Shown here piece by piece: positions 14,645 to 32,000 of a DNA stretch of 32,000 bases. The stretch is from Geotalea daltonii FRC-32 (GTDB taxonomy: Bacteria > Desulfobacterota > Desulfuromonadia > Geobacterales > Geobacteraceae), in contig NC_011979.1 in assembly GCF_000022265.1 (NCBI RefSeq), positions 2,760,001-2,792,000 on the forward strand, read 5' to 3'. The translations under genes were made by a program, and so were the position numbers. Numbering within the stretch: position 1 is the first letter of the stretch; the number at the start of each line of letters is the position of its first letter. The notes beneath the pieces were generated by a model. That model was not told the origin of the DNA. It made no database searches and worked only from the letters and a program-made list of their open reading frames with translations.

Positions 14645-15049
14645 TTGAAACTCACCTCCCGAAGCGAATATGCACTTCTGGCACTTATCTATCTGGCCCG
14701 TACCGGCAGCGAAAATCTTGTCCCCGTCCAGACCATTGCCACCGCCCAAGGCATTCCCCCAAAGTTTCTCGAACAGATTCTCCTGATCCTGAAACGGGCC
14801 AAGTTCCTCCGCAGCCTGCGGGGGCAGGCGGGGGGCTATGCCCTGGCCAGACCTGCAAGCCAGATCCATCTTGCCGAGGTGATCAGGCTCTTCGATGGGG
14901 CGCTGGCTCCCACGGAGTCGGTAAGTGTCTACTTTTACGAATCGACCCCAATTGAGAAAGAGCAGAAACTCATTTCCGTATTTAAGGATATCCGGGACTA
15001 CGTTGCCGGAAAGCTGGAGAACACCACCCTGGCTGACGTGAGCGAATGA
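14645..15049 (+). CDS. Rrf2-family transcriptional regulator without cysteines (CymR-like rather than IscR-like)
   Basis: 134 aa. It reads MKLTSRSEYALLALIYLAR...IPPKFLEQILLILKRAKFLRSLRGQAGGYALAR, a winged-HTH of the Rrf2 family. The whole protein contains no Cys, so it cannot bind an Fe-S cluster the IscR/NsrR way. The start codon is TTG. Confidence 0.85.
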   Translation: MKLTSRSEYALLALIYLARTGSENLVPVQTIATAQGIPPKFLEQILLILKRAKFLRSLRGQAGGYALARPASQIHLAEVIRLFDGALAPTESVSVYFYESTPIEKEQKLISVFKDIRDYVAGKLENTTLADVSE

Positions 15050-17977: not shown

Positions 17978-18017
17978 CTAATAAAGCTTGTATTAATAGG
18001 GTAAAGGAGCATCAACA

Positions 18018-18933: not shown

Positions 18934-18962
18934 TTGACAAGAAAAAGATGTAAGCCTATAAA
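18934..18962 (+). promoter_or_regulatory. Sigma70-type promoter of the GAPDH gene
   Basis: TTGACA (18934-18939), a 17-nt spacer, then TATAAA (18957-18962), in an AT-rich stretch. Confidence 0.45.
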
Positions 18963-18996
18963 GTTGATAGACTTAAAAAAAAGAGTTCTATCATTT

Positions 18997-20031: not shown

Positions 20032-20137
20032 CCATCAATTGAGACTCCTCCATAACGTTCTGATGCCCGCGCCTGAAGCAGCCCATCCTTAGCACCCTTC
20101 ATAAACAGAAAAAGGTATATATCTGCTTATTCCTTTT

Positions 20138-20171
20138 CTTCGTGCCATGGGCTCGGAGTGGGTTTTTTTTT
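20138..20171 (+). terminator. Possible intrinsic terminator after gap
   Basis: CTTCGTGC and GCTCGGAG form an imperfect 8-bp stem with a 5-nt loop, followed by TGGG and T9 (20163-20171). Confidence 0.4.
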
Positions 20172-20230
20172 GCCTGATCCAGGAGGCTCTTATTAGTCTA
20201 CAAAATAAATCTACTAAATAGAAAAAATTC

Positions 20231-20259
20231 TTGACTTGTCAACTTTGGTTAGTTACGAT
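20231..20259 (+). promoter_or_regulatory. Sigma70-type promoter of the nifX-like/cysK pair
   Basis: TTGACT (20231-20236), a 17-nt spacer, then TACGAT (20254-20259). An ATAGAA box lies at 20218-20223. Confidence 0.4.
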
Positions 20260-20338
20260 TATTTCCACTGCAGCTCACCATAGAACCAAGATGTGGATTT
20301 AATGGCGAGCTAATCATATCTGGCAATGCGGGGGCAAA

Positions 20339-20692
20339 ATGGAGATAAGGGTGGCTGTTGCCAGCAGTAATGGCGCAACAGTAAACGAACATTTCGGCAG
20401 AGCGAAAAATTTCACAATTTATCGTCTGGTGGAGGAGATCTGGCAGCATGTGGAGGAGCGCCCAAATCTGCCCCCCTGCAATGGACACTGTCACAGCGAT
20501 GCCCTGCTGGAGCAAACCGCTACCCTGCTCAGGGACTGCCAGGGGGTCATCGTCAACCAGATCGGTCCCGGAGCCATGGATACCCTGCTGTATCGCAATA
20601 TCCTGCCCTTTGCCCTGAGCGGGTCAATTGAAGATGCCCTGGCAACGGTACGTGATTCAAAGCTGTTCCGGGTCCGCAATAAAATCGGATAA
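20339..20692 (+). CDS. NifX/NafY/NifB-C-terminal-like protein (dinitrogenase iron-molybdenum cofactor family fold)
   Basis: 117 aa. It reads RVAVASSNGATVNEHFGRAKNFTIYRL...LLRDCQGVIVNQIGPGAMDTL, the canonical pattern of the Nitro_FeMo-Co (PF02579) family. Confidence 0.8.
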   Translation: MEIRVAVASSNGATVNEHFGRAKNFTIYRLVEEIWQHVEERPNLPPCNGHCHSDALLEQTATLLRDCQGVIVNQIGPGAMDTLLYRNILPFALSGSIEDALATVRDSKLFRVRNKIG

Positions 20693-20741
20693 ATTCGACT
20701 CAAGGCAGAGTCGGTAATCAATTAAAAGGAGATCAATCATT

Positions 20742-21671
20742 ATGGCACGCATTGCGAGTAACCTGACGGAGCTGATCGGCAGAACACCACTTTTGCGACT
20801 CAGTCGCCTTGCCGAAGGCGCTGCTGCTGAAGTGGTGGCCAAACTGGAGTCATTCAACCCCGGAGGAAGCGTTAAGGACCGGATCGGCTTTTCCATGATC
20901 AAGGATGCCGAGGAGAAAGGGCTCATCACCAAGGATACGGTCATTATCGAGCCGACCAGCGGCAATACCGGCATTGCCCTGGCCTTCGTTGCAGCGGCAA
21001 AAGGGTACCGGCTTATCCTGACCATGCCCGACACCATGAGCGTTGAACGGCGGAACCTGCTCAAGGCATACGGTGCTGAACTGGTCCTTACTCCCGGAGC
21101 CAAGGGGATGAAAGGTGCCATTGAAAAAGCCGAGGAACTGGCTGCCGCCACACCCAATTCATTCGTTCCCCAACAGTTCAAAAATGCCGCCAATCCCGCC
21201 ATTCATCGCGCCACTACAGCTGAAGAAATATGGGCGGATACGGACGGCAAGGTGGATATACTGGTTGGTGGCGTAGGCACCGGCGGCACCATCACCGGCA
21301 TCGGCGAAATCATCAAGGGACGCAACTCTGACTTCAAGGTCGTAGCAGTTGAACCCTTCGATTCGCCGGTCCTGTCCGGCGGCGTACCTGGACCCCACAA
21401 GATCCAGGGCATCGGAGCCGGCTTTGTTCCAGGCGTACTCAATACCGGGATCATAGATGAAATTTATAAAGTTAAAAACGAAGAGGCTTTTGAAACTGCT
21501 CGCCGCGTTGCACGGGAAGAGGGTGTTCTGATCGGCATTTCCGGAGGTGCCGCAGCTTTTGCTGCTCTGCAGATTGCCAAAAGACCCGAGAACAAGGGGA
21601 AGCGAATCGTGGTGATCCTGCCTGACACCGGCGAGCGGTATCTGTCGACGGCGCTTTTTCAGGAAGTATAA
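20742..21671 (+). CDS. cysK: Cysteine synthase A (O-acetylserine sulfhydrylase)
   Basis: 309 aa. It has the PLP lysine [11 protein letters not shown], the substrate loop [12 protein letters not shown], and GTGGTITG. Confidence 0.95.
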
Positions 21672-21712
21672 ATATTATTCTATTAAAACGATAGATTTAT
21701 AGAATTAAATTG

Positions 21713-21741
21713 TTGACAATGTAAGCAGAACAAAGTAATAA
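21713..21741 (+). promoter_or_regulatory. Sigma70-type promoter of the ABC importer operon
   Basis: TTGACA (21713-21718), a 17-nt spacer, then TAATAA (21736-21741). TTCTAT-N15-ATAGAA (21678-21704) lies just upstream. Confidence 0.4.
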
Positions 21742-21813
21742 AATAAGTACACCATTTAAGTGGCTTATTATTTTTTCACAGAACTACCCAAGATTGACTG
21801 ACCAGAAATACTG

Positions 21814-21866
21814 GAGGTCAAGGATAGGGCGCTTGAAGCGCTTCGTTTCCTTGACCTCTTTTTTTT
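21814..21866 (+). terminator. Strong intrinsic terminator in the cysK-ABC intergenic region (cysK terminator or leader attenuator)
   Basis: GAGGTCAAGGA (21814-21824) pairs with TCCTTGACCTC (21848-21858), with an inner GCGCT-tga-AGCGC hairpin, followed by T8 (21859-21866). It lies 73 nt downstream of the predicted -10 and 54 nt upstream of ATG 21920. Confidence 0.7.
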
Positions 21867-21919
21867 ACCCATTTCTGGCCAATTCTGCTGCGAATCAACC
21901 AAAAAGGACGTGGTTCAAA

Positions 21920-22735
21920 ATGCACGAAATTACCCTGACTAATATTTCATATGCCTATGGGGAACAAACTGTTCTTGAGGATATCAATTTTACTGCGGCA
22001 GCTGGTGAGTTCATCTGTCTGCTGGGGCCTTCTGGATGTGGCAAAAGCACCCTCCTTCGCCTGCTTGCCGGTCTTGCACGGCCAACCACCGGTACCCTGA
22101 CCCTTGATGGAAAACCGATCAATGGACCGGGACTGGACCGTGGGGTGGTCTTTCAGGATTACAGTCTTTTTCCCTGGATGACAGCAGGACAAAATGTCGT
22201 TCTGGCGCTTGAACAGGCTTTTCCAGGGAAATCCAGGGCCAGACTTCGCCAGACGGCCCAGGAGTATCTGGAGATGGTCGGGCTTCGGGATGTCTTCCAT
22301 AAACTGCCTGGGGCACTGTCCGGCGGGATGCGGCAGCGAGCTGCCATTGCCCGGGCTTTTGCCATCAATTCCCCGGTTTTGCTCATGGATGAACCTTTCG
22401 GCGCCCTTGACGCCATTACCCGTGCCCGGCTGCAGGACTTGCTGCTTCAACTGTGGCAGCAGAACACTGCCGAACGCAAAACCGTCTTCTTCGTCACCCA
22501 TGATGTGGAGGAAGCCATTCTCCTGGCCAGCAGGGTCATGGTCATGGGGCTGAATCCCGGTTCGGTGCGCGGTGTCTTTCCGGTGGACATTCCGCGACCG
22601 CGACGGCGCCAGGCACTGTACACCGATCCAGCCTTTCTCACCCTGCGCGACCGTCTGATCAGAGAACTTCATGCGGATGTGCTGGATGAACTGGATGAGG
22701 GACGAACGGTGCGAACGGCAGGGGAAGGTATCTGA
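21920..22735 (+). CDS. ABC transporter ATP-binding protein, NitT/TauT (nitrate/sulfonate/taurine/HMP) family
   Basis: 271 aa from ATG 21920, with an AAGGA RBS. It has Walker A GPSGCGKST, signature LSGGMRQR, Walker B LLMDEPFGALD and H-loop VTHD. The ORF-track extension from 21794 crosses the terminator. Confidence 0.9.
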   Translation: MHEITLTNISYAYGEQTVLEDINFTAAAGEFICLLGPSGCGKSTLLRLLAGLARPTTGTLTLDGKPINGPGLDRGVVFQDYSLFPWMTAGQNVVLALEQAFPGKSRARLRQTAQEYLEMVGLRDVFHKLPGALSGGMRQRAAIARAFAINSPVLLMDEPFGALDAITRARLQDLLLQLWQQNTAERKTVFFVTHDVEEAILLASRVMVMGLNPGSVRGVFPVDIPRPRRRQALYTDPAFLTLRDRLIRELHADVLDELDEGRTVRTAGEGI

Positions 22736-22736
22736 G

Positions 22737-23507
22737 ATGGCAGCGAGACGCCATGGAATCAGTGTCCTGCTGCTTATGGCCGTGCTGTTGATTCCTCATA
22801 CCGGGTTTACTGCGGTTAAAAAGCCCATTCGTATCGGTTACCTGGATAATCCTGGTGCCTTATTGGTGGTACAGGCGGCGACATATGGCTTCTATGATGA
22901 GCAAGGGATTAGGGTGATCCTTGTGCCTTTCAGGGATTCGCATAAGGGACTTGCGAAACTGGATCGACGCAAGCTGGATGCAGGGGCGTTTTCAGTCGGT
23001 GAAACACTCAAGAGAATAGCTGCCGGCTCCAGGATCAGCATTATCGCCGGGGGGGGCAGAAACCAGCAGCCGGACCAGCTTGCCGATCTGAAAACTGACG
23101 ATGTAGGGAAAGAATTGAGCCAGGGAATCGTCCTTGCCGTGTCCACCCAGTCGGGCGCTTCCGGCAAAGAGCTGCAGGTCAGGCTGGTAAAGGCCCTTAT
23201 TCTGGCCCATCGAGCCTTGGCCAACAGGACTTCAACCGGCGGTGCCGCAGCTGAAGCGGTCAGCCTCCACCTTGATCCAAACCCGGACTTCTGGAAGCTG
23301 CAGCAGCTCTGGACCTACCATGGGCTGCAGAACGAAACGATGACAAGGGATTTCCTCGCCAACCATGTGAACGAAGAGATCTACTGTGACGCCCTGGATG
23401 AACTGCTTGATGAAGACGGGCGCAAGGACCCGGTGCTGCTGAAGCTGAACAGCAGGGCTGTCTGTGTTCCCGACTGCTGTCCTGCTAAACCCGAAAAAAA
23501 ACGCTGA
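22737..23507 (+). CDS. Divergent, short NMT1/THI5-like periplasmic binding protein paralog (SBP1)
   Basis: 256 aa. It has a signal-like N-terminus (ISVLLLMAVLLIPHTGFTA). KPIRIGYLDNPGALLVVQAATYGFYDEQGIRV..KLDAGAF aligns with the N-lobe of the three downstream SBPs. The C-terminal half is divergent and ends in CVPDCCPAKPEKKR. Confidence 0.6.
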   Translation: MAARRHGISVLLLMAVLLIPHTGFTAVKKPIRIGYLDNPGALLVVQAATYGFYDEQGIRVILVPFRDSHKGLAKLDRRKLDAGAFSVGETLKRIAAGSRISIIAGGGRNQQPDQLADLKTDDVGKELSQGIVLAVSTQSGASGKELQVRLVKALILAHRALANRTSTGGAAAEAVSLHLDPNPDFWKLQQLWTYHGLQNETMTRDFLANHVNEEIYCDALDELLDEDGRKDPVLLKLNSRAVCVPDCCPAKPEKKR

Positions 23508-23523
23508 ATAAGGAGGGTATACG

Positions 23524-24552
23524 ATGAAACGACTGATTCTGTTCGTCCTGTTGCTGACAATGGTCGCAAGCAACGCCATTGCCGGAGGGCTGCCGAAACT
23601 TCGGGTGGGCTATATTCCCGAACCTGCCCATGGGCTGTATTTTGTGGCCAATGAAAAGGGATATTTCAAGGAAGAAGGCGTGGATGTGGAACTCTTCCAA
23701 TTCGGCAGCGCCGCGGAAGGACTGGCTGCCCTCAAGGCGGAAAAACTGGATGTTGGAACCTTCGGCACCACGGCCCCCATTCTTTTCATCAGCAAGGGGA
23801 GCGAGTTTACCTTTATCGGCGGCATGATGATAGGCGGCCAGGCCATTATCACCCGCCCGGAGCGCCTGGCTGAGCTGTCCGGCAAAAATCTCAAGGTCTA
23901 CAAGGGTAAGAAGATCGGCCTGGTGAAACTTTCCACCGGCGACGTCATCTTTAAGGGAGCCCTGAAGAAAGCAGGTATCGATTATAAAAAGGATATCACC
24001 TTTGTCGAGTTGGGAACTGTCGCTTCGGTGGTAGAGGCAGTGAAAAAGGGTGCCGTTGACGCCGGTCTCGTTTATCCCCCCCATTTTTCCCTGGCCGAGA
24101 AGAACTACGGGCTGAAGGTCGCACATTACATCGAGGATTTCTATCCGGATTACACCTGTTGCCGCATCGTCGCCCACACCAAGCAGGTGAATGCCGATCC
24201 GGAAACCTATCGGAAGTTCCTGGCCGCCCTGATTCGCGCCTATCGTTTTTACAAGACCAATCCCGCCGAGACGGTAAAGATCTACGCCAAGGCCCTTAAA
24301 ATCGATGAAGACATCATCCGCAATGAAACCTATGTGAAAAAGGTGGCTGATTCCAATCCCGATCCGCTACGCAAGGGCATCCTGGACTTCTGGCAGCATA
24401 TCCGCGATGCGGGCTACATTGCACAGGACTATCCCTTGGATAAGCATATCAACACCACCATCTATAAGCAGGCCCTTGACGGGGTGATCAGGAAGTCTCC
24501 CAAGGACAAGATCTACAAGCAGATGCTCACCTTTTATAAAAGAAACAACTAG
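23524..24552 (+). CDS. ABC transporter substrate-binding protein, NMT1/THI5-like (SBP2)
   Basis: 342 aa. A signal peptide is followed by LRVGYIPEPAHGLYFVANEKGYFKEEGVDVELFQFGS..KLDVGTFG and the motif YTCCRIVAH. Confidence 0.85.
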   Translation: MKRLILFVLLLTMVASNAIAGGLPKLRVGYIPEPAHGLYFVANEKGYFKEEGVDVELFQFGSAAEGLAALKAEKLDVGTFGTTAPILFISKGSEFTFIGGMMIGGQAIITRPERLAELSGKNLKVYKGKKIGLVKLSTGDVIFKGALKKAGIDYKKDITFVELGTVASVVEAVKKGAVDAGLVYPPHFSLAEKNYGLKVAHYIEDFYPDYTCCRIVAHTKQVNADPETYRKFLAALIRAYRFYKTNPAETVKIYAKALKIDEDIIRNETYVKKVADSNPDPLRKGILDFWQHIRDAGYIAQDYPLDKHINTTIYKQALDGVIRKSPKDKIYKQMLTFYKRNN

Positions 24553-24727
24553 GCGGGGGCGGCCTTCACGCCATCTCGACGCCGTCCTCGTCGTCTCCTT
24601 GTGCGGCGTAGCGTGAGCTACGCCTCCGCGGGACTTCTCCGGGCGACGCCGACCTGGCGCAAATTCCACCCCCGGATGGTAGAACCTCATATTCACATAG
24701 CTGAGTGACAGCAGAAAGAGAGCCAAT

Positions 24728-25777
24728 ATGAAAAAGATAGTGTCCATAGTTCTTACCATTGCCCTGCTTGCCTTAGGAGCCGCAGTCAGCCAGGCCGCAC
24801 CGCTGAAGAAACTGAAAGTGGGCTATCTGCCCACCTCCGGCCACCTGCTCTATTTTGTCGCCAAGGAAAAGGGGTTCTTTCAGCAGGAGGGGCTTGATGT
24901 GGAGCTGTTCCGCTTCACCAATTCCGGCGAGGGGCTTACCGCCATCAAGAGCGGCAAGCTGGATGCCGGTTCCTTCGGCACCTCGGCGCCCCTGGCCTTT
25001 ATTGCCAAGGGTGCCGACTTCACCATCTTCGGCGGGCAGATGGGGGAGGGGCACGCCCTGATCGCCAAGCCGGAAAAGGCCGAGCGATTCAAGAATCTGA
25101 AAAACTATAAAGGAGCTACCATAGCTGCCGTCAGGCTGGCCACCGGCGATGTGGTCTTCCGCGCTGCCCTGCATGAAGCAGGGTTGGACTGGAAGAAGGA
25201 CCTGACCATCAAGGAATTCGACTCGCCGGCGGCGGTGCAGGAGGCGGTAAAGAAGGGAGCGGTGGACGCAGGACTGACCTGGATTCCTTACTACACAATG
25301 GCCGAAAAGCAGGGCCTGGTGGTGGTCAAATACTCAGGCGACGTCATCAAGTCCCATACCTGCTGCAGACAGGTGGCAGTTACCTCGACACTGAAAGAGC
25401 GCCAGGCCGATTTCGAAAAATTCCTGGTGGCCCTGCTCAAGGCCTACCGCTTTTACCAGAGCAACAAGAATGAGACAGTCAATGTGGTAGCCAAGTACGT
25501 GCAGATCGACAAGGCTGACCTGTACAAGGACATCTATGGCGGCCACCTGCTGGTAAGCCCCGATCCGCACAAAAAGTCGGTCGTCCAGTTCTGGGACTTC
25601 ATGAAACAAGCGGACTACATAACCTCCGCGGAAAAAATAGATAATCGTGTCAATACGAGTATCTATGCCGGTGCGCTGGCTGCTTTAGTGAAGAGGGAGC
25701 CGAAAGAAAAACTCTGGAAGAACCTGGATAAGGAATTCCGGGCGGGCGATGCCAACCTGCACATCAAGAAACATTGA
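24728..25777 (+). CDS. ABC transporter substrate-binding protein, NMT1/THI5-like (SBP3)
   Basis: 349 aa. A signal peptide is followed by LKVGYLPTSGHLLYFVAKEKGFFQQEGLDVELFRF and the motif HTCCRQVAV. It is a clear paralog of SBP2. Confidence 0.85.
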   Translation: MKKIVSIVLTIALLALGAAVSQAAPLKKLKVGYLPTSGHLLYFVAKEKGFFQQEGLDVELFRFTNSGEGLTAIKSGKLDAGSFGTSAPLAFIAKGADFTIFGGQMGEGHALIAKPEKAERFKNLKNYKGATIAAVRLATGDVVFRAALHEAGLDWKKDLTIKEFDSPAAVQEAVKKGAVDAGLTWIPYYTMAEKQGLVVVKYSGDVIKSHTCCRQVAVTSTLKERQADFEKFLVALLKAYRFYQSNKNETVNVVAKYVQIDKADLYKDIYGGHLLVSPDPHKKSVVQFWDFMKQADYITSAEKIDNRVNTSIYAGALAALVKREPKEKLWKNLDKEFRAGDANLHIKKH

Positions 25778-25834
25778 TCAAGCTCTCTTTCCTCATGCCC
25801 TTTGGGGTATGACAAGGAAGGGGAGGGGGAAGCC

Positions 25835-26737
25835 ATGAAACGATTTGTCACAATAGCCAATCTGCTGTTCATCGTCCTAGTCGGAACGCTGTTTTTAGCA
25901 GCAAATAAGGGCATTCCCGACCACCTTCTGATTGTAACACTTGCCGTAGAGCTGATCTACCTGGTGCGTGTTACCTTCGACGGTGATGAAAAAGGGGGGA
26001 GCAGTGCCGGAGATGTTGCATCCATAATCTACCTGTTCCTTTTGCTCTGGTTTTTGGTCACCGGGAAGTCGGCGCTGCTGGACAAGATGCTCTTCCCACA
26101 ACCTGAGCCGGTGCTGGAACTCTTTGTGGCCGAACTGCCGGACATGCTGAAGGGACTAGTCAACTCCCTGATCCTTCTGGTCAGCGGTTACCTGCTGGCA
26201 CTGATTACAGGGGTTCCCTTGGGGCTCCTTATCGGCTGGCGCGGTAGACTCTTTCGGGCGGTCAATCCCTTCACCAAGGTGCTGGGGCCGATCCCTCCCA
26301 TCGTCTACATACCCTATGCCATTGCCTTGTTGCCCAGCTTTCGCGCCGCATCCATCTTCGTCATCTTCATCGGCGCCTTCTGGCCGATCTTCATCAATAC
26401 CGTTAATGGCGTGTTCAACATACCCAAGGGGCTGATCGATTCGGCCCGGGTGCTCAATCTGCGGGAGACGACGCTGCTGTTCCGGGTAATCCTGCCCGGC
26501 GCCATGCCTTCCATATGCACCGGGGCAACCCTGGCACTCGTATTCTCGCTGGTCCTTCTTACTGCCGCCGAGTTGATTGGCGCCAATTCCGGCATCGGCT
26601 GGTATGTGAAGAACTTCGCCGATTTCGCCGATTACCAGCGGGTCATTGTCGGCATCATCTTCATCAGCCTGGTGGTGACAGGCATTACCTGGGGGACGGA
26701 GCGGCTGGAGCGGCGGCTGTTGCGCTGGAGAAATTGA
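25835..26737 (+). CDS. ABC transporter permease (binding-protein-dependent inner membrane component), copy 1
   Basis: 300 aa from ATG 25835, with a GGAGG RBS 8 nt upstream. It is multi-TM and has an EAA-loop-like DSARVLNLRETTLLFRVILPGAMP. Confidence 0.85.
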   Translation: MKRFVTIANLLFIVLVGTLFLAANKGIPDHLLIVTLAVELIYLVRVTFDGDEKGGSSAGDVASIIYLFLLLWFLVTGKSALLDKMLFPQPEPVLELFVAELPDMLKGLVNSLILLVSGYLLALITGVPLGLLIGWRGRLFRAVNPFTKVLGPIPPIVYIPYAIALLPSFRAASIFVIFIGAFWPIFINTVNGVFNIPKGLIDSARVLNLRETTLLFRVILPGAMPSICTGATLALVFSLVLLTAAELIGANSGIGWYVKNFADFADYQRVIVGIIFISLVVTGITWGTERLERRLLRWRN

Positions 26738-26781
26738 GTGTTTACTCAGAAAAACTGATCCAATACACGGAGGTTTTGACA

Positions 26782-27822
26782 ATGAATCATTTAAAGAAAC
26801 TTGCACAGGCGGCTCTGGCCTTGACGTTCGCCGTTACATTGGCCAGTCCGGCAACGGCAGCAAACAGGCCGACACTCAAGGTTGGCTACGCCCCTGGCGG
26901 CGGCAGCGTTCTGACCTTTATTGCCAAGGATCAGAAGCTGTTCGAAAAAGAAGGGATAGAAGTGGAACTGGTTCAGTTCGCCAGCTCCGCGGACGGGCTC
27001 AATGCCCTTAACAGCGGCAAAGTGGATGTGGGGATTTCCTTTGGCACCGCAGGCCCCCTGACGTTCATTTCCAAGGGTTCCGACTTTACCATTATCGGCG
27101 GCCACCTCTCGGGCGGTCATCCGGTTCTCGCTTTGCCGGCCAAAGCCGGACAATTCAAGTCCATCAGGGATTTCAAGGGTAAGACCGTGGCCACTCCCCG
27201 TATTTATACTGCCGACATCGTCTGGCGCGGCGCCCTCAAACGAGCCGGTCTGGATCCCAACAAAGATGTGAAGATTATCGAGCTGAAGAATCCATCTGCC
27301 GTTCTCGAGGCGGTAAAGGCGGGCAAGGTGGACGCCGGTATCGGCGCTTCTTCAGTGCTGGTAAAGGCCAGGGAATCCGGTGTGGCCATAGTGGGCTGGA
27401 GCAATGATTACTTCCCAAACCACCCCTGCTGCAGGATCGTGGCCAAAGGAAAGGCGGTCAAGGAAAACCCCGAAGCTTACCGTGCTTTCTTGCGGGCGGT
27501 TCTCCAGGCGGAAAAACTGAAGGCCGCAAACCCACGATTGGCAGTGGAGGAGAATAAGAAGTTCCTGGGCATGGATGAAAGCATGGCGAAGGAATTTACC
27601 CTGGAACCGCACCAGCATGTTCAAGCCGACCCCGACAAAAAAGGTGTCAAGCAGATGTGGGAGGACATGAAGTCCATCGACTACCTGCAGACCGATCTGG
27701 ATGTCAATCGCCACATCAATGTCGAGTTGTACCGCGACGCCTTGAATGAGCTTTTGCGTCGCAACCCCAAGGACAAATACTTCAAGAATGCAAAAAAGAT
27801 CTTTGCCAGGCAGAACCTATAG
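26782..27822 (+). CDS. ABC transporter substrate-binding protein, NMT1/THI5-like (SBP4)
   Basis: 346 aa from ATG 26782, with a GGAGG RBS. The signal peptide is MNHLKKLAQAALALTFAVTLASPATA. It reads LKVGYAPGGGSVLTFIAKDQKLFEKEGIEVELVQF and carries the motif HPCCRIVAK. The ORF-track extension from 26515 overlaps the permease gene. Confidence 0.85.
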   Translation: MNHLKKLAQAALALTFAVTLASPATAANRPTLKVGYAPGGGSVLTFIAKDQKLFEKEGIEVELVQFASSADGLNALNSGKVDVGISFGTAGPLTFISKGSDFTIIGGHLSGGHPVLALPAKAGQFKSIRDFKGKTVATPRIYTADIVWRGALKRAGLDPNKDVKIIELKNPSAVLEAVKAGKVDAGIGASSVLVKARESGVAIVGWSNDYFPNHPCCRIVAKGKAVKENPEAYRAFLRAVLQAEKLKAANPRLAVEENKKFLGMDESMAKEFTLEPHQHVQADPDKKGVKQMWEDMKSIDYLQTDLDVNRHINVELYRDALNELLRRNPKDKYFKNAKKIFARQNL

Positions 27823-27852
27823 AAATTGATAGGGAATTGGGGAGTGAACGGG

Positions 27853-28608
27853 ATGACGATCATTAAAAAATATGGCGGATCAATCGCTCTGCTGGTGCTG
27901 CTGATGGCGCTTTTCGAGATAGCCACCGACCTGACCGGCTGGCTTGAGCCGGTCCTCTTTCCCGGATTGGTTAAAATCCTGCCTGAACTGAAGCGGTCTT
28001 TTCCCAAGCTTTTGCAGGGACTGGTGAACTCCTTCGGGCTGCTCCTTCCCAGTTATGCCCTGGCCCTGGTGCTCGGCATCGGGGGTGGCCTGCTGGTGGG
28101 CTTTTGCGGGAGGCTCAGGACAATTCTGATGCCGATCTTCCGGGGCGTCAGCCCGATCCCCCCGACCATGCTGATTCCTTATGCCATAGCGATTCTGCCA
28201 ACTTTCTGGCTGTCTTCGGCCTTCATCATCTTTGCCGGGGCCTTCTGGCCGATCCTGATGGGGACCATCCACGGAGTTACGCTATTGGAGGAACGCTATC
28301 TTGATAACGCCAGCGCTTTGGGGTTGGGCGGTTTCCGGCTGATGAGAAAAGTCATCTTCCCCGGTGCCCTGCCGATGATTTTCAGCGGCGCCGGCATGGC
28401 GCTGGTTTTCAGCTTCATCCTGCTGACCGTGGCGGAGATGTTCGGCGCCAAAGCCGGGATGGGGCACTTTATCCAATATTACGCCGATTTTTCCGATTAC
28501 CCGAAGGTGTTGGCCGGCATGCTCTTCATGTCATTGGTCATCGTGCTGATAATGGAACTGTTCGACCTGCTCCAGAAGCGCCTTCTCCATTGGACCGGCA
28601 AAAGATAG
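27853..28608 (+). CDS. ABC transporter permease, copy 2 (paralog of 25835-26737)
   Basis: 251 aa. It aligns by eye along its whole length with permease 1 (GLVNS..PIPP..IPYAIA(L/I)LP..FWPI..(A/S)LVFS(L/F).LLT.AE). Confidence 0.85.
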   Translation: MTIIKKYGGSIALLVLLMALFEIATDLTGWLEPVLFPGLVKILPELKRSFPKLLQGLVNSFGLLLPSYALALVLGIGGGLLVGFCGRLRTILMPIFRGVSPIPPTMLIPYAIAILPTFWLSSAFIIFAGAFWPILMGTIHGVTLLEERYLDNASALGLGGFRLMRKVIFPGALPMIFSGAGMALVFSFILLTVAEMFGAKAGMGHFIQYYADFSDYPKVLAGMLFMSLVIVLIMELFDLLQKRLLHWTGKR

Positions 28609-28620
28609 GAACCTGATACG

Positions 28621-29970
28621 ATGCTACCGCAAGGCGATCACAATTCACTGTTTATCAACGAGATTCCCAAATGGGGGGAGCCATATCCCAACATCCTGAA
28701 CCGGCAGTCGGTCCTTGAATGCCTGACCGATTACCTCCTCCAGGTGAACTACCGGGGATACAGGCCAGACCCTCGCAAAGTGCTGGCGGTAAGGCAATCT
28801 GACCGGACGGCGACCCTGCGTAACGCCTCTGCTCCCATTCGCCAGGAGGTTTACTACTTCATCGAGGGGGAGATCTTCCCCAAGGAAGGAACCACCCGGA
28901 TGAAAGTGGGACAGTCACCGTCAGAGCTTGCCGAGGAACTACTGGTACAGCATTATGAGCGGCTTTACATCTGGGTCGCTTATGACTTTACCAAGGGGTC
29001 GCCCCCCGGCTTCAGAAAGCCATTCGACAATCCCTTGATCATCAAAGGTTCATCGTGCCCGAATCCTGAACAGGTCAATAGACGTCAGGCGCCGGAAGGG
29101 GTTAACCCGCGATTTTTCCTTCCCGACCCTCTAGCGGCCAATATTGGTGATGGGGGTATCAGCCCCGATGTTGCCCTGGATGAGATCGCCAGCTTTGTGA
29201 CGGACCTGGTGAAGAGGGATTTCCGCAATGCCTTGCCGGAGGGGGACAACCCCCCTATCTGGGACGAGCCGCTCATTGGTATAGCCTCAGCCACCGATCC
29301 TCTTTTCGAGCGGTTCCAGGACCCTGAGGTGGTTGGCCCCTGTCACCGTTTCCCCGAGGAATGGCTGCCGGGCGCCCGCTCGGTCATCAGCGTCTTCCTG
29401 CCGTTTACCGGGCATATTTCGGAGAACTACAGCAGGAGCCAGCGTTATTCGGCGGTGGAATTCTCATCGGGCAAATGGAACGGTTCCAAGTTCCTCAATG
29501 TGGTGCGCAGGGCCTTGGTCCGCTTTGCCGAAAGCCATGGGGCAAGCGCCGTCGCCCCCAACATCGATCCCCGCTATGACTCTGACGGCTGGCTGCCGTT
29601 CTGGTCCGAGCGCCATGCCGCCCTTGCCGCCGGCTTAGGTACCTTCGGCCTGCATCAGAACTTCATCAGCGAAAAGGGTGCTTTTGGCCGCCTCTGCAGC
29701 GTGGTCACCACCCTTAATCTCAAACCGACGGAACGCCGCTACACGGAAGTGTATGGCTACTGTCTCTATGCTTTTGACGGTAGCTGCCGGGCCTGCATCA
29801 ACCGCTGCCCGACGGGGGCGATCACCGATGCCGGGAAAATACCGGGAAGATGCGAGACCCATGGTAACAAGGAGCATCTCAAGGACTGGAACTATGGCTC
29901 CTGCGGCCACTGCTCCACCTGGATTCCTTGCTCCCGTGGCATTCCGGCCAAGATCAGGAAAACTCTGTAA
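28621..29970 (+). CDS. QueG/RdhA-superfamily (epoxyqueuosine-reductase-like) Fe-S protein with a ~200-aa N-terminal extension
   Basis: 449 aa. The C-terminal half resembles QueG: LIGIASATDPLF..ARSVISVFLPF, ERHAALAAGLGTFGLHQNFISEKGAFGRLCSVVTTLNLKP, the ferredoxin motif CRACINRCPTGAI, and a second cluster CGHCSTWIPC. I do not recognise the N-terminal extension. Confidence 0.65.
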   Translation: MLPQGDHNSLFINEIPKWGEPYPNILNRQSVLECLTDYLLQVNYRGYRPDPRKVLAVRQSDRTATLRNASAPIRQEVYYFIEGEIFPKEGTTRMKVGQSPSELAEELLVQHYERLYIWVAYDFTKGSPPGFRKPFDNPLIIKGSSCPNPEQVNRRQAPEGVNPRFFLPDPLAANIGDGGISPDVALDEIASFVTDLVKRDFRNALPEGDNPPIWDEPLIGIASATDPLFERFQDPEVVGPCHRFPEEWLPGARSVISVFLPFTGHISENYSRSQRYSAVEFSSGKWNGSKFLNVVRRALVRFAESHGASAVAPNIDPRYDSDGWLPFWSERHAALAAGLGTFGLHQNFISEKGAFGRLCSVVTTLNLKPTERRYTEVYGYCLYAFDGSCRACINRCPTGAITDAGKIPGRCETHGNKEHLKDWNYGSCGHCSTWIPCSRGIPAKIRKTL

Positions 29971-30002
29971 TTGCATAATTCGATACAAGAAAGGAAACAC
30001 CC

Positions 30003-31532
30003 ATGAGTTACTTCGACAACAAGGTCCCTCCCAAGCGTGAGGATCGACTGAAAGCAGTCATTGCCCATGAGGACACCATCTGCAACATGGCCAGAAAGGC
30101 TGGCGGCAAGAGCTGCCTGATCGACGACGGGGAGCGGGGCTTCACCCAGGGATCAATCTGCCTGCTGCTGCCGGCGTTGGCCATGCTCAATACTCTGCCG
30201 GACAACGTGGTGCTTCTGCACAGCGCCCTGGGATGCGGTTCCTGTACCCACTCCCAGAACGCCAATGTGCGGGTGGGGAGCAATATTCGCCAGGGTAAGG
30301 CGAAAGACGGCATCTGGCTTTCCACGGCACTGGATGAGACCGACGTCATCAGCGGCGGCGAGCCGAAGCTGGAACAGGCCATCATCGAGGCCGACCGGCG
30401 TTATCGTCCGTCGACTATTGCCATTGTGGCGGGCTGCGTGCCCGGCATCATCGGTGATGATATCGATGGCGTGGCGCTGAAGATCCAGCCCCAGGTTAAC
30501 GCCAGACTGCTGCCGGTTCACTGCGAAGGCTTCAAGACCAAGATCTGGGCCACCGCCTATGACGCGGTTTACCATACCATCGGCCGCAATCTGCTGGAGG
30601 AGCGGGGAATACATGATCCTGCACCGGAAGACGAACTTGCCGTGTTCCTGGAGCAGCAGCGCCTTGCCCGAACCGTCAACCTGATGAATGTCTCTTCCAT
30701 GGGACGGGTCGACGAACAGGAACTGGAGCGGCTTCTCAATTCCATCGGCCTGGAAACCAATGTTTTTCCCGTTTTCTCCCATCCGGATTCCTTCATCAAG
30801 GCCACACGGGCGGCCCTGTCCATCAGCACCTGCCCGACCCACGACGATTACTTCCTCGGCTATCTGCAGGAGCGCTTCAAGGTGCCGTCCATCATCAGGC
30901 ATATGCCCATCGGCATTGATAACACAAGCCTCTGGCTGCGGGACGTTGCAGCTGTTTTCGGCGCTGAAGAGCAGGCGGAGCGGCTCATTGCCGCCGAAGT
31001 TGCGGAACTGAAAGAAGCATTGGGGGAATTCCGCCCCCTGTTCGAAGGGAAGAAGGTTTTTGTAAGTGCCGGTGAGTTCCGTGCCCTGGCCACTTCCCGG
31101 CTATTACAGGAAATAGGGCTGGAAGTGGTGGGAATCCGCTCCTTCCACCATGATGACTTCGCCAATGTGGAATATGAGAAATTGGCCGGTGAGGCCAAAA
31201 GCGACTATGTGGTGGACATTGCCAATGTCCAGCCCTTCGAGGAGGCAAACCTGCTCAAGCGGCTGAAACCGGACCTGTTCCTGGGACATGCAAACGGCAA
31301 CATGACCGCTGCCAAGCTGGGCATCCCCACCCATGTCATCTACAATACCGGTCTTTCTTACATCGGTTACCGGGGTGTTTACGAGGTCGCCCGCAGGCTG
31401 CATCGCCAGCTGAAGAATCCGTCTTACAACCGGAACCTGTCCCAAAACACCAGGCTCCCCTATACGGAGAACTGGTATGGGGCCGAGCCGTTTTCCTATC
31501 TGAATACCAGCGGGAGGGCTGTCAATGAGTGA
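30003..31532 (+). CDS. Nitrogenase-like oxidoreductase, NifD/NifE-like (alpha-type) subunit
   Basis: 509 aa. By eye it is collinear with NifD: GSIC (Cys62 position), HSALGCG (Cys88), AGCVPGIIGDDI (Cys154), PVHCEGF, LSISTCPTHDDY (Cys275 position), GIPTHVIYNTGLSYIGYRG (His442 region). Confidence 0.85.
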   Translation: MSYFDNKVPPKREDRLKAVIAHEDTICNMARKAGGKSCLIDDGERGFTQGSICLLLPALAMLNTLPDNVVLLHSALGCGSCTHSQNANVRVGSNIRQGKAKDGIWLSTALDETDVISGGEPKLEQAIIEADRRYRPSTIAIVAGCVPGIIGDDIDGVALKIQPQVNARLLPVHCEGFKTKIWATAYDAVYHTIGRNLLEERGIHDPAPEDELAVFLEQQRLARTVNLMNVSSMGRVDEQELERLLNSIGLETNVFPVFSHPDSFIKATRAALSISTCPTHDDYFLGYLQERFKVPSIIRHMPIGIDNTSLWLRDVAAVFGAEEQAERLIAAEVAELKEALGEFRPLFEGKKVFVSAGEFRALATSRLLQEIGLEVVGIRSFHHDDFANVEYEKLAGEAKSDYVVDIANVQPFEEANLLKRLKPDLFLGHANGNMTAAKLGIPTHVIYNTGLSYIGYRGVYEVARRLHRQLKNPSYNRNLSQNTRLPYTENWYGAEPFSYLNTSGRAVNE

Positions 31533-32000
31533 GCATTTCGTCGAACGGGCACGTTACATGTGTTCTTTGGGGGGGGCGACCGGCACCGTAACCGCCCTGC
31601 CTGGTGCTATCCCGATTCTCCATTCCGCATCGGGCTGCGCCGGCAATTTCGCCTGGACCCAGAACGGCGGCAGCGGCCTTCAAGTGGGGGGATACTGCGG
31701 CTCTCTGACTGTTCCCAGTTCCAATATGCAGGAGAATGAAGTCGTCTTCGGCGGCGAGGATCGCCTGCGGGAACAGATTGCCAGCACCCTGAAAGTCATG
31801 GATGGCGGCCTGTACGTGGTCCTGACCGGCTGTGTGCCCGAGATGATCGGTGATGACATCTTTGCCGTCGTTAATGATTTCCGTGAAGAGGGTGCCCCGA
31901 TTATCGGCGCCATCACCGGCGGTTTCCGCGGCAACTCCTATTGGGGATACGACCTGGTGCTGCAGGCTTTGGTGAAGGATTTCCTTACTAGAGGCTTGTC
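31525..32000 (+). CDS. Nitrogenase-like oxidoreductase, NifK/NifN-like (beta-type) subunit, 3'-truncated by the window edge
   Basis: ATG 31525 overlaps the upstream stop by 8 nt (ATGAGTGA). It reads MSEHFVERARYMCSLGGA (Cys70 position), HSASGCAG (Cys95), TGCVPEMIGDDI (Cys153). The frame is open to the end of the window. Confidence 0.8.
   Translation, partial: MSEHFVERARYMCSLGGATGTVTALPGAIPILHSASGCAGNFAWTQNGGSGLQVGGYCGSLTVPSSNMQENEVVFGGEDRLREQIASTLKVMDGGLYVVLTGCVPEMIGDDIFAVVNDFREEGAPIIGAITGGFRGNSYWGYDLVLQALVKDFLTRGL

What the first reader, a model, noticed from the sequence alone, without database searches (positions are those of the whole stretch)
30003..32000. Nitrogenase-like D/K pair with a full P-cluster cysteine set, in a sulfur/cysteine context rather than a nif or bch context
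Two overlapping genes encode NifD-like and NifK-like proteins. By eye-alignment with Azotobacter NifD/NifK, each keeps all three P-cluster cysteines. The D-like protein also keeps a Cys (LSISTC) at the position of the FeMo-co ligand Cys275. The His195 region (SLGHH) is replaced by ATAYD, and the His442 equivalent is ambiguous (PTHVIY needs a 2-residue gap). No nifH, nifEN, radical-SAM nifB or bch/chl genes occur in the 17 kb upstream. The neighbours are cysK, a NitT/TauT-type importer, a Cys-less Rrf2 regulator, NifS and a NifX-like protein. The only characterised nitrogenase-like enzyme I know with comparable context is methylthio-alkane reductase (MarBHDK of Rhodospirillum rubrum), which cleaves C-S bonds of volatile organosulfur compounds for sulfur salvage. 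Gene order and accessory content here differ, so this may be a distinct Nfl lineage or activity.
Basis: partly seen in the sequence, partly recalled or inferred. Interest (0 to 1): 0.85.

Follow-up and report, generated by a model that had tools for sequence, protein, structure and literature searches.

The report
Nitrogenase-like sulfur-salvage reductase gene pair
These two overlapping genes encode the catalytic half of an untested relative of nitrogenase that probably cuts carbon-sulfur bonds so an anaerobic Geobacter-type bacterium can scavenge sulfur; its gene neighbourhood has been noted before, but no enzyme of this branch has been studied.

Summary
Window 30003-31532 encodes a 509-aa NifD-like protein. 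An overlapping NifK-like gene starts at 31525 and is cut by the window end; it is 447 aa on an identical longer contig. All six P-cluster cysteines and the cofactor cysteine (Cys277) align with the structure-verified ligands of R. rubrum methylthio-alkane reductase (MarDK). They are invariant in about 80 orthologues. MarDK is the closest solved relative by sequence and fold, at only 31% (D) and 37% (K) identity. A bootstrapped tree puts this family outside the clade that holds MarD and the Nfa-like (IV-A) proteins.

The downstream extension shows no Fe protein. It shows a corrinoid protein, two MtaA-like S-methyltransferases and a corrinoid activase, which together form a "type 1 mlp gene cluster". 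In Geotalea toluenoxydans (98% identical D), NifH- and NifB-like genes lie about 79 kb away. In other relatives they sit inside the locus.

Best reading: an ATP-driven C-S bond reductase that works with the corrinoid demethylase, SsuA-type importers and CysK to turn organosulfur compounds into cysteine.

The link between sulfur genes, mlp clusters and nitrogenase-like genes was already published from sequence analysis (2012, 2023). This is therefore an uncharacterised variant of a known kind, not a new system.

The parts
30003..31532 (+). NFL alpha (D-like) subunit, 509 aa. P-cluster Cys53/78/145. Cofactor Cys277. Invariant His382, His429 and Trp182; His444 is conserved in 76 of 80 orthologues.
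   Evidence: PF00148 at 3e-78. Best PDB hit is MarD 9fmg_A at 211 bits. Ligand columns are invariant in 80 orthologues. AF2 model plus Foldseek gives 9fmg_A as top hit.
31525..32000 (+). NFL beta (K-like) subunit, first 158 of 447 aa. It overlaps the D stop by 8 nt. P-cluster Cys13/38/103.
   Evidence: Translation. Full length on identical contig L001:11523-12866. Best PDB hit is MarK 9d9u_C at 294 bits. Cysteines conserved in 76 orthologues; Cys13 has one gap.
28621..29970 (+). 449-aa Fe-S protein distantly related to epoxyqueuosine reductase and reductive dehalogenase, 32 nt upstream of D. It travels with the SBP3-permease module in relatives.
   Evidence: TIGR00276 at 5e-12. QueG 5d08 at E 0.003. 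Cys motifs. Module behaviour.
27853..28608 (+). ABC permease 2 (NitT/TauT family).
   Evidence: Gene call and PF00528 on L001. Synteny.
26782..27822 (+). Substrate-binding protein 3 (SsuA family, with an OpuAC-like hit).
   Evidence: TIGR01728 at 135 bits. Pfam list.
25835..26737 (+). ABC permease 1 (SsuC/TauC/NtrB-like).
24728..25777 (+). Substrate-binding protein 2 (SsuA family).
   Evidence: TIGR01728 at 128 bits.
23524..24552 (+). Substrate-binding protein 1 (SsuA family).
   Evidence: TIGR01728 at 126 bits.
22695..23507 (+). Short, poorly conserved NMT1-like binding-protein homologue.
   Evidence: Weak PF13379 hit. Gene call. Only 50% identical to G. toluenoxydans.
21920..22735 (+). ABC transporter ATPase (TauB/NtrCD-like).
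   Evidence: TIGR01184 at 262 bits.
20742..21671 (+). CysK (O-acetylserine sulfhydrylase), the presumed sink for released sulfide.
   Evidence: PF00291. Present in 37 of 80 related loci.
20339..20692 (+). NifX/NafY-like cofactor-carrier protein, first gene of the presumed operon.
   Evidence: PF02579 at 3e-20. Present in 29 of 80 related loci.
14645..15049 (+). Cysteine-free Rrf2 regulator (CymR-like). A possible sulfur-responsive regulator; its link to the operon is inferred only.
   Evidence: PF02082 at 2e-31; CymR model at 76 bits, below its cut-off. Rrf2 paralogues recur next to K in 7 related loci and in the second NFL cluster.

Best explanation
D and K form the catalytic alpha2beta2 component of an ATP-dependent nitrogenase-like reductase. 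It is expected to carry a P-cluster at the D/K interface and an Fe-only [Fe8S9C]-type cofactor in D, bound by Cys277 and a histidine that is most likely His429.

Electrons would come from a MarH/NifH-type Fe protein, and the cofactor from a short NifB-like radical-SAM enzyme through the NifX-like carrier. In this genome type both genes lie outside the locus, about 79 kb away in G. toluenoxydans.

Proposed pathway:
1. SsuA-type ABC importers take up organosulfur compounds.
2. The DK enzyme reductively cleaves one C-S bond of a thioether, giving a hydrocarbon and methanethiol or another thiol.
3. The downstream corrinoid protein, two Zn-dependent Mlp S-methyltransferases and the RACE activase remove the S-methyl group and release sulfide.
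4. CysK fixes the sulfide into cysteine.
5. Expression is expected to respond to sulfur limitation through CymR-like Rrf2 regulators.

Shown here: family membership, ligand conservation, conserved synteny, and the location of the H and B genes. Inferred: cofactor type, substrate class, order of steps, and regulation.
For: **Relationship to MarDK**
- MarDK is the closest solved homologue by sequence and by fold.
- All six P-cluster cysteines, Cys277, Trp182 (MarD Trp195) and His382 (MarD His375) are conserved across about 80 orthologues. The Mar ligands come from PMC12552129.

**Downstream genes on the identical contig**
- A B12-binding corrinoid protein with a DTHDIG motif.
- Two MtaA-like methyltransferases with His-Cys-Cys zinc sites.
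- A RACE activase.

**Synteny in 80 genomes**
- Any Mlp in 67 loci, corrinoid protein in 43, ABC ATPase in 54, CysK in 37, NifX in 29, NFL-type NifH in 28 and NifB-like in 19.
- Locus L007 (D 88% identical) has the window's gene order with NifB-NifH-Mlp in front.
- Other recurring neighbours are Cys/Met PLP enzymes, MetQ/MetI transporters and an SrpI-type encapsulin with a cysteine desulfurase.

**Partner genes**
- The G. toluenoxydans NifH (passes the TIGR01287 cut-off) and NifB-like gene lie on the same contig, next to a second CysK and an Rrf2 gene.

**Literature**
- Mar homologues are induced by sulfate limitation, and nflX is needed for growth on DMS in R. palustris.
- An Mlp2 catalyses methyl-cobalamin:sulfide/selenide methyl transfer, and MarHDK-like genes were noted near non-selenium MGCs.
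Against: - There is no biochemical or genetic data for any member of this clade.
- D is only 31% identical to MarD.
- Residues lining the Mar active site and substrate channel differ: Cys73/Gln74 become Ala/Met, His194 becomes Ile, and M70/Y98/I101 become P/Q/N.
- The Arg428-His429 hallmark of Mar is replaced by Gly-His-Ala, with the His shifted by one residue.
- No Fe protein or NifB gene lies within 30 kb upstream or 10 kb downstream.
- The binding proteins look like sulfonate binders rather than thioether binders.
- The acceptor of the methyl group is unknown; no H4folate methyltransferase is nearby.
- R. palustris NflDK3 shows that a sulfur-regulated Mar-like DK pair can lack any detectable activity on volatile organic sulfur compounds.
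- No sulfur-related riboswitch or recognisable operator was found.
Confidence: 0.5

Rival explanations
1. Same components, opposite order. The Mlp/corrinoid system first demethylates an imported methylthio compound to a thiol. The DK enzyme then reductively cleaves the remaining C-SH bond and releases H2S directly for CysK.
For: - In Bacillota an extra Mlp sits immediately upstream of D in 30 of 80 loci, which suggests tight coupling.
- R. palustris Mar2 acts on ethanedithiol, so Mar-type enzymes can cleave thiol C-S bonds.
- CysK needs sulfide.
Against: - Characterised Mar enzymes release methanethiol from thioethers.
- The only Mlp2 activity measured is methyl transfer to or from sulfide and selenide, which fits methanethiol as the Mlp substrate.
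- No data discriminate between the two orders.
Confidence: 0.2
2. The DK enzyme is a reductive desulfonase for sulfonates imported by the SsuA-type transporter, functionally like isethionate reductase. It would release sulfite or sulfide.
For: - The three binding proteins, the permeases and the ATPase match SsuA/SsuC/TauB-type families best.
- A nitrogenase-like isethionate reductase exists and is induced by sulfur limitation.
Against: - IsrDK (group IV-F) is predicted to hold only a [4Fe-4S] cluster, whereas this pair keeps the full P-cluster and cofactor ligand set.
- No sulfite reductase is in the locus.
- This reading does not explain the near-universal linkage to S-methyltransferases.
- The SsuA-family scores are below the model cut-off.
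Confidence: 0.08
3. The DK enzyme serves the corrinoid chemistry itself. It might dispose of the methyl group by reducing methyl-Co(III) or a methyl-thiol to methane. Alternatively it might supply very low-potential electrons to the corrinoid protein.
For: - The linkage between DK and the corrinoid/Mlp genes is tight.
- No methyl acceptor enzyme is encoded nearby.
- An L-type [Fe8S9C] cluster was recently modelled next to CoM and the corrinoid in the Mtr complex.
Against: - A dedicated RACE activase is already present.
- No precedent exists for a D/K-type enzyme acting on a protein-bound corrinoid.
- Some orthologous loci lack the MGC altogether, for example Geobacter sp. SVR.
Confidence: 0.07
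4. It is an Nfa-type (group IV-A) alternative nitrogenase that reduces N2 or nitrogen oxides.
For: - Kountz and Balskus labelled MGC-linked MarHDK-like genes as group IV-A.
- IV-A enzymes are implicated in N2 fixation in Endomicrobium proavitum.
Against: - The cysteine spacing published for NfaDK matches a different family (P0141 and the second DK pair in L052), not this one.
- The tree separates the two families.
- The NifD residues Gln191, His195 and Lys426 are absent.
- The context is sulfur, with no nitrogen-regulatory genes.
- From general knowledge, Geobacteraceae carry a normal nif system.
Confidence: 0.04
5. It is a NifEN-like scaffold that only matures or stores an L-type cluster for another enzyme, for example the second DK pair.
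For: - NifE is the top NCBIfam hit.
- A NifX-like carrier is in the operon.
- The genome carries a second NFL DK pair next to NifB and NifH.
Against: - The NifE score is a third of the family cut-off, and PDB NifE hits are far weaker than MarD.
- The buried Mar-type ligand set (Cys277, His382, Trp182) is invariant.
- MAR and the Fe-only nitrogenase assemble their cofactor without NifEN.
Confidence: 0.04

Closest known systems
Methylthio-alkane reductase MarBHDK of Rhodospirillum rubrum (group IV-C; PDB 9FMG, 9D9U)
   Same: - D/K architecture with all six P-cluster cysteines.
- The cofactor cysteine, plus Trp and His near the S2B sulfide.
- The NifD catalytic Gln and His are absent.
- Sulfur-assimilation context.
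- Relatives carry a NifB lacking the NifX domain, together with an NFL-type NifH.
- Best sequence and fold match.
   Different: - Identity is only 31% (D) and 37% (K).
- The family lies outside the Mar clade in the tree.
- Arg428-His429 is replaced by Gly-His-Ala.
- Channel and pocket residues differ.
- The genes are fused into an operon with importers, CysK and a corrinoid S-methyltransferase cluster rather than marBHDK alone. H and B are not adjacent here.
Type 1 mlp gene clusters (Kountz & Balskus 2023 preprint), non-selenium clade
   Same: - Corrinoid protein, two UroD-family Mlps with His-Cys-Cys zinc sites, and a RACE activase.
- No H4folate methyltransferase nearby.
- MarHDK-like genes and CysK alongside, exactly as that preprint describes.
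   Different: - The preprint does not mention Geobacteraceae in its text.
- It labels the linked nitrogenase-like genes as group IV-A, whereas this DK family separates from the Nfa-like family.
- Assignment of these two Mlps to the Mlp2 and Mlp3 clades was not tested here.
Group IV-A NfaBHDK (Endomicrobium proavitum, Heliophilum fasciatum)
   Same: - P-cluster cysteine set, cofactor cysteine and a loop-I histidine.
- Fe-only cofactor predicted.
- The Nfa-like family occurs in the same neighbourhoods, for example as the second DK pair in L052.
   Different: - The cysteine spacing differs. Nfa has extra Cys50 and Cys60 in D, and K spacing 13/37/97 against 13/38/103 here.
- Nfa has an ARHGG loop against GH[A/W/M]NG here.
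- The two form separate clades.
- There is no nitrogen context here.
Orphan NflDK pairs of purple bacteria (R. palustris NflDK3; R. rubrum NflDK)
   Same: - DK pairs without their own H and B genes.
- Located among sulfur genes and induced by sulfate limitation.
- Function unknown.
   Different: - NflDK3 is 52-56% identical to MarDK1, so it is much closer to Mar than this pair is.
- No corrinoid methyltransferase linkage is reported for them.
Isethionate reductase IsrBHDK (group IV-F)
   Same: A nitrogenase-like enzyme for anaerobic sulfur scavenging, next to sulfonate-type ABC transporters.
   Different: It is predicted to hold only a [4Fe-4S] cluster, whereas this pair keeps the full P-cluster and cofactor ligands.

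Membership tests
Methylthio-alkane reductase MarDK (group IV-C) | Six P-cluster cysteines: MarD C66/C91/C158 and MarK C32/C56/C121 | tested here: met
   They align to D C53/78/145 and K C13/38/103. All are conserved in 80 D and 76 K orthologues; K Cys13 has one gap.
Methylthio-alkane reductase MarDK (group IV-C) | [Fe8S9C] cofactor cysteine ligand (MarD Cys270) | tested here: met
   D Cys277 aligns to it and is invariant in 80 of 80 orthologues.
Methylthio-alkane reductase MarDK (group IV-C) | Loop-I Arg428-His429 dyad, with His ligating Fe8 (the proposed Mar hallmark) | tested here: inconclusive
   An invariant His429 exists but aligns with Arg428, one residue early. There is no Arg; the next residue is Ala, Trp or Met. 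His444 is a second candidate, conserved in 76 of 80.
Methylthio-alkane reductase MarDK (group IV-C) | Phylogenetic placement inside the MarD clade | tested here: not met
   NJ tree, 105 sequences, 100 bootstraps. The Mar + Nfa-like clade has 97% support and excludes the query. The query's wider clade has 93%. MarD's 50%-cluster representative is 28% identical to D by BLASTP.
Methylthio-alkane reductase MarDK (group IV-C) | Adjacent marB and marH genes | tested here: not met
   No NifH-like gene was found in the 32-kb window, and none lies 10 kb downstream in G. toluenoxydans. They are present about 79 kb away there, and inside the locus in 28 (NifH) and 19 (NifB) related loci.
Methylthio-alkane reductase MarDK (group IV-C) | Reduction of DMS, methylthioethanol or EMS to methanethiol plus a hydrocarbon | not testable with these tools
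   This needs enzyme assays or genetics.
Group IV-A NfaDK | Published E. proavitum cysteine pattern: NfaD C50/53/60/78/81/146/257 and NfaK C13/37/97 | tested here: not met
   The query D has cysteines at 27/38/53/78/81/145/174/277 and K at 13/38/103. The exact published pattern occurs in the P0141 family.
Group IV-A NfaDK | Clade membership with Nfa-like sequences | tested here: not met
   P0141 and L052_D2 group with MarD, not with the query. The reference is indirect, because no named E. proavitum sequence was retrieved.
Type 1 mlp gene cluster (MGC) | At least two UroD-superfamily Mlps with a His-Cys-Cys zinc site | tested here: met
   L001:13555-14601 and L001:14719-15741 match PF01208 and the MtaA/CmuA models. 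Zinc ligands are H238/C240/C321 and H242/C244/C318.
Type 1 mlp gene cluster (MGC) | [quoted passage not shown] | tested here: met
   L001:12890-13555 matches TIGR02370 at 210 bits and has a DTHDIG motif. L001:15743-17413 has Fer2, Raco_middle and RACo_C_ter domains.
Type 1 mlp gene cluster (MGC) | No H4folate:corrinoid methyltransferase in the cluster | tested here: met
   No pterin-binding domain appears among the called genes within 10 kb on either side.
Type 1 mlp gene cluster (MGC) | The Mlps fall in the Mlp2 and Mlp3 (non-selenium) clades | not tested
   No reference Mlp sequences were available. The only hint is that MlpB is closer to MtaA than MlpA is.
Mo/V/Fe nitrogenase NifDK and NifEN | NifD Gln191, His195, Lys426 and His442, and scores above the equivalog cut-offs | tested here: not met
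   The positions carry Trp182, Tyr186, Asn431 and Tyr447 (the Lys426 position is from manual register counting). nifD scores 150 bits against a cut-off of 654, and nifE 167 against 505.

The most novel reading that the evidence does not exclude
This clade may be a nitrogenase-like enzyme that is mechanistically coupled to a corrinoid methyltransferase system. Its Fe-only [Fe8S9C]-type cofactor would be bound through a ligand arrangement different from both Nif and Mar. Together with methyl-corrinoid chemistry it would dismantle thioethers completely, into a hydrocarbon, a transferable methyl group and sulfide.

The Nfa-like (IV-A) family lies in the same neighbourhoods. If the coupling is real, sulfur scavenging rather than N2 fixation could be the ancestral job of this whole group IV branch.
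Probability: 0.15. Interest if true: 0.8.

Novelty: new variant of a known kind. Interest (0 to 1): 0.55.

Why it matters
Anaerobic routes from organosulfur compounds to cysteine are poorly known. Mar is so far the only characterised enzyme outside nitrogenase maturation shown to use a P-cluster together with an [Fe8S9C] cluster.

This family is widespread. It occurs in Geobacteraceae, many Bacillota, termite-gut Treponema and Acidobacteriota. It keeps the Mar-type metal sites but has a different pocket and loop. It is almost always wired to corrinoid S-methyltransferases.

Characterising it would do several things:
- It would define a second substrate class for these clusters.
- It could explain hydrocarbon (methane, ethylene) release in anoxic soils and sediments.
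- It would test the proposed function of the mlp clusters.
- It would bear on whether the sulfur-linked enzymes preceded true nitrogenases.

It is also a caution for nifD/nifH-based surveys of diazotrophs in Geobacter-rich soils.

Tried and rejected
- **NifEN, BchNB/BchYZ or CfbD membership:** rejected by NCBIfam scores far below cut-off and by PDB ranking.
- **Fe protein just downstream of the window:** rejected. The extension carries corrinoid, Mlp and RACE genes, then unrelated genes.
- **The upstream HypB-like GTPase or soluble ABC ATPase as a substitute Fe protein:** dropped. They show only remote UreG/HypB similarity. They are absent from all 80 related loci. A bona fide NFL-type NifH exists in the nearest genome.
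- **Group IV-A label taken from the 2023 preprint:** tested against the published NfaDK cysteine positions and the tree, and not upheld for this family.
- **Naming the nearest 50%-identity clusters with the listing of cluster members:** gave almost no names.
- **Searching with P0141 for a named E. proavitum protein:** none was retrieved.
- **Riboswitch or other RNA regulator:** none found in the window or in three related loci.
- **Promoter and terminator scans:** at chance level.
- **AF2 model:** only moderate quality (pLDDT 71) and no coordinates were returned, so the His429 versus His444 question could not be settled.


Full report
**1. The observation**

The window carries a 509-aa ORF at 30003-31532 (+). 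It has an AGGA-type ribosome-binding site 8 nt upstream. A second ORF starts at ATG 31525 and overlaps the first gene's stop by 8 nt. It runs off the window after 158 codons.

- Both proteins match Pfam PF00148, 'nitrogenase component 1' (3e-78 and 2e-27).
- Against NCBIfam they hit NifE, NifD, Vnf, Anf, Bch and CfbD models only far below the curated cut-offs. The best is nifE at 167 bits against a cut-off of 505.
- They are therefore nitrogenase-like (NFL) proteins, not members of any named equivalog.
- A public contig (L001, Logan SRR29904085) is 100% identical to window 20003-32000. It extends 5.7 kb further and completes the K-like protein at 447 aa.

**2. Metal-site residues**

The best PDB matches by a wide margin are chains A and C of 9FMG/9D9U.

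| Subunit | Best hit | Next best hit |
|---|---|---|
| D | 211 bits, E 3.5e-61 | 122 bits, a NifD-type chain |
| K | 294 bits, E 1.8e-86 | 104 bits, a NifEN fusion |

The two entries are the R. rubrum methylthio-alkane reductase MarDK(H) complexes.

The structure paper (PMC12552129) lists the ligands:
- P-cluster: MarD Cys66/91/158 and MarK Cys32/56/121.
- [Fe8S9C] cluster: MarD Cys270 and His429. His429 sits in a Mar-specific 'Loop I' next to Arg428.

In the HMMER alignments, and in MAFFT alignments with 80 D and 76 K orthologues:
- D Cys53/78/145/277 occupy the corresponding MarD positions and are invariant. K Cys13/38/103 occupy the MarK positions; Cys38 and Cys103 are invariant and Cys13 is present in 75 of 76 orthologues.
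- Trp182 (MarD Trp195), Tyr186 (MarD Phe199) and His382 (MarD His375) are also conserved.
- The NifD catalytic residues Gln191 and His195 are Trp182 and Tyr186.
- His429 is invariant in a GH[A/W/M]NG motif. It lies one residue before MarD His429, on the Arg428 position, and no Arg is present.
It is present in 76 of 80 orthologues and lies three residues before the NifD His442 position, which here is an invariant Tyr447.

Which histidine binds the cofactor is unresolved.

Several Mar pocket and channel residues differ. Cys73/Gln74 become Ala60/Met61. His194 becomes Ile181. M70/Y98/I101 become P57/Q85/N88.

An AF2 model (pLDDT 71, pTM 0.72) finds MarD as the top structural neighbour:
- 9fmg_A: E 5e-29, TM 0.70/0.76.
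- NifD chains: E about 1e-23, TM about 0.6.

**3. What lies around it**

Upstream on the same strand are:
- a NifX-like protein (20339-20692);
- CysK (20742-21671);
- a NitT/TauT-type ABC system with an ATPase, a short binding-protein homologue, three SsuA-family binding proteins and two permeases (21920-28608);
- a 449-aa Fe-S protein remotely related to epoxyqueuosine reductase (28621-29970).

Further upstream lie a GAPDH paralogue and a separate set of overlapping genes. That set comprises a Cys-less CymR-like Rrf2 regulator, a soluble ABC-type ATPase, a HypB/UreG-like GTPase, NifS and a PF04060 Fe-S protein.

Downstream of K, beyond the window, the identical contig encodes:
- a B12-binding corrinoid protein with a DTHDIG motif;
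- two MtaA/CmuA-type UroD-family methyltransferases with His-Cys-Cys zinc sites;
- a RACE-type corrinoid reductive activase.

This matches the 'type 1 mlp gene cluster' (MGC) of Kountz and Balskus. Their preprint notes that MarHDK-like genes, CysK and methionine genes accompany the non-selenium MGCs. It proposes methyl-sulfide valorisation or methionine salvage.

**4. Where the Fe protein and NifB are**

tblastn finds no NifH-like gene anywhere in the 32-kb window. None lies in the 10 kb downstream in Geotalea toluenoxydans, whose D orthologue is 98% identical.

A scan of species-representative genomes returned 80 loci with D orthologues at 58-92% identity. They come from Geobacteraceae and Desulfuromonadales, many Bacillota, termite-gut Treponema, Holophagaceae and Mesoterricola.

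| Neighbour within 10 kb | Loci (of 80) |
|---|---|
| Any Mlp | 67 |
| ABC ATPase | 54 |
| Corrinoid protein | 43 |
| RACE activase | 39 |
| CysK | 37 |
| Extra Mlp immediately upstream of D | 30 |
| NifX-like | 29 |
| NFL-type NifH (Cys97/Cys133) | 28 |
| ~296-aa NifB-like radical-SAM protein lacking the NifX domain | 19 |

- Locus L007 (uncultured Geobacter, D 88% identical) has the window's gene order preceded by NifB-NifH-Mlp.
- Searching with that NifH found a G. toluenoxydans orthologue (90% identical) on the same 566,610-bp contig as the D gene. It lies about 79 kb upstream in the same orientation.
- That second cluster reads: Rrf2, a sulfate-type binding protein, a NifH-like protein, a NifB-like protein, NifH, CysK2, D2 and K2.
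- The electron donor and cofactor maturase therefore exist but are unlinked in this genome type.
- Other recurrent neighbours are Cys/Met PLP enzymes, MetQ/MetI transporters, DUF1847, DUF2325 and an SrpI-type encapsulin with a cysteine desulfurase and CysE. All point to sulfur metabolism.

**5. Which branch of the superfamily**

- A HMMER search of 1.84 billion 50%-identity representatives gave closest clusters at 51%, 43% and 42% identity. The cluster containing MarD is about 28-30% identical to D.
- By BLASTP, D-MarD identity is 30.8% and K-MarK identity is 37.3%.
- A neighbour-joining tree used 105 sequences, 467 columns and 100 bootstraps.

| Clade | Bootstrap support |
|---|---|
| The family | 100% |
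| Wider clade including eight unnamed representatives | 93% |
| Separate clade with MarD, its representative, and P0141/L052_D2 | 97% |

- The 2026 review (PMC13474568) gives the cysteine positions of E. proavitum NfaD (50/53/60/78/81/146/257) and NfaK (13/37/97).
- Exactly this pattern occurs in the P0141 family. That family has an ARHGG loop. It includes Acetivibrio thermocellus and Syntrophobotulus glycolicus. It also forms the second DK pair after NifB-NifH in L052.
- I therefore read P0141 as the group IV-A (Nfa) family, and the window's pair as a different, unnamed group IV lineage. The 'IV-A' label in the 2023 preprint does not fit it.

Caveats: the tree is distance-based. The Nfa reference is indirect. 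No references for groups IV-D and IV-E or for R. rubrum NflDK were available.

**6. Most likely mechanism**

By analogy with Mar, supported by the conserved ligand set and the NifB, NifX and NifH partners, D2K2 should hold P-clusters and an Fe-only [Fe8S9C]-type cofactor. It should catalyse ATP-dependent reductive C-S cleavage.

The conserved wiring suggests a division of labour on thioethers:
1. The NFL enzyme breaks one C-S bond, as Mar does, yielding a hydrocarbon and methanethiol.
2. The corrinoid/Mlp system removes the S-methyl group. An Mlp2 catalyses the reverse reaction with sulfide and selenide.
3. CysK traps the sulfide as cysteine.

The reverse order, demethylation first and then thiol C-S cleavage, is equally compatible with the synteny. 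It is also compatible with Mar2 activity on ethanedithiol.

The remaining rivals have less support, for the reasons given under the rival explanations. They are sulfonate reduction, a role in corrinoid chemistry itself, Nfa-type nitrogen reduction and a scaffold role.

Sulfur-limitation control is inferred from three things. One is the CymR-like Rrf2 genes. Another is the CysK and encapsulin neighbours. The third is the behaviour of Mar homologues in R. palustris. No riboswitch or significant promoter signal was found.

**7. Novelty and verdict**

- The sulfur context of NFL genes in Geobacter sp. FRC-32 was noted in 2012 (PMC3464626).
- The pairing with mlp clusters was noted in 2023.
- No later characterisation was found in the held literature.

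What this analysis adds:
- The family is a well-supported lineage distinct from both Mar and the Nfa-like family.
- It has its own loop-I arrangement.
- It has very consistent Mlp linkage.
- In Geotalea its H and B partners sit about 79 kb away.

I rate it an uncharacterised variant of a known kind. It is a good experimental target but not a categorically new system.

Noticed in passing
window 7693-11848: A 708-aa GHKL-type ATPase (PF13589) lies in a 35.5% GC island, against about 55% GC elsewhere. Next to it is a 418-aa protein with weak type II restriction-enzyme similarity (PADLOC REase_II, 3e-9). This is probably a horizontally acquired defence-like island.
   Followed up: partly
window 14645-18743: A compact gene set reads: Cys-less Rrf2, soluble ABC-type ATPase (261 aa), HypB/UreG-like GTPase with CxxxC/CxxC motifs (240 aa), NifS, and a PF04060 Fe-S protein (241 aa). 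The ATPase, GTPase and NifS genes overlap by 4 nt. It looks like a metal-cluster maturation module. The ATPase, GTPase and Fe-S protein were not found near D in any of the 80 related loci.
   Followed up: partly
window 22731-23266: The 5' part of the short binding-protein-like gene has no blastn match in G. toluenoxydans, although both flanks are about 94.5% identical. The protein is only 50% identical. This is a replaced or hypervariable segment inside an otherwise collinear operon.
   Followed up: partly
L086:6069-14868 (G. toluenoxydans, about 79 kb from the D orthologue): A second sulfur-linked NFL cluster has two different NifH-like genes (275 and 292 aa), two DUF2292 genes, a NifB-like gene, a second CysK and a D2K2 pair. 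D2 is 31% identical to D. It has a cysteine (LSCPFQG) where the loop-I histidine sits, which suggests yet another cofactor ligation.
   Followed up: partly
L052:5853-8662; also L041 and L046: These loci show a tandem [Mlp-D-K][NifB-NifH-D'-K'] arrangement. In L052 and L046 the D' protein carries the cysteine spacing published for E. proavitum NfaD, and in L052 K' also matches NfaK. This highly conserved family includes Acetivibrio thermocellus and Syntrophobotulus glycolicus. The putative 'alternative nitrogenase' group IV-A thus sits in sulfur and mlp neighbourhoods.
   Followed up: partly
window 26782-29970; L011-L013 and L059 (downstream of RACE): Binding protein 3, permease 2 and the QueG-like Fe-S protein move together as a three-gene module. 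They lie upstream of D here and after the RACE gene in Geomonas. A DUF1847 protein occupies the slot upstream of D in other relatives.
   Followed up: partly
L004:1-3845; L016, L022, L026, L027: A type 2A encapsulin shell protein (SrpI-like, with a cNMP-binding domain) lies next to the DK pair in Geobacter sp. SVR and in uncultured Desulfuromonadaceae/Geobacteraceae genomes. Beside it are a 581-aa cysteine desulfurase and serine acetyltransferase. Oryzomonas loci (L016, L022) carry the desulfurase and serine acetyltransferase, and L022 also the shell protein.
   Followed up: no
window 18898-20031: A GAPDH paralogue sits between the Fe-S module and the NFL operon. It is read from a TTG start with an N-terminal extension of about 40 residues. 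It passes the type I GAPDH model but also scores 354 bits on the ArsJ-associated GAPDH model, below that model's cut-off.
   Followed up: no
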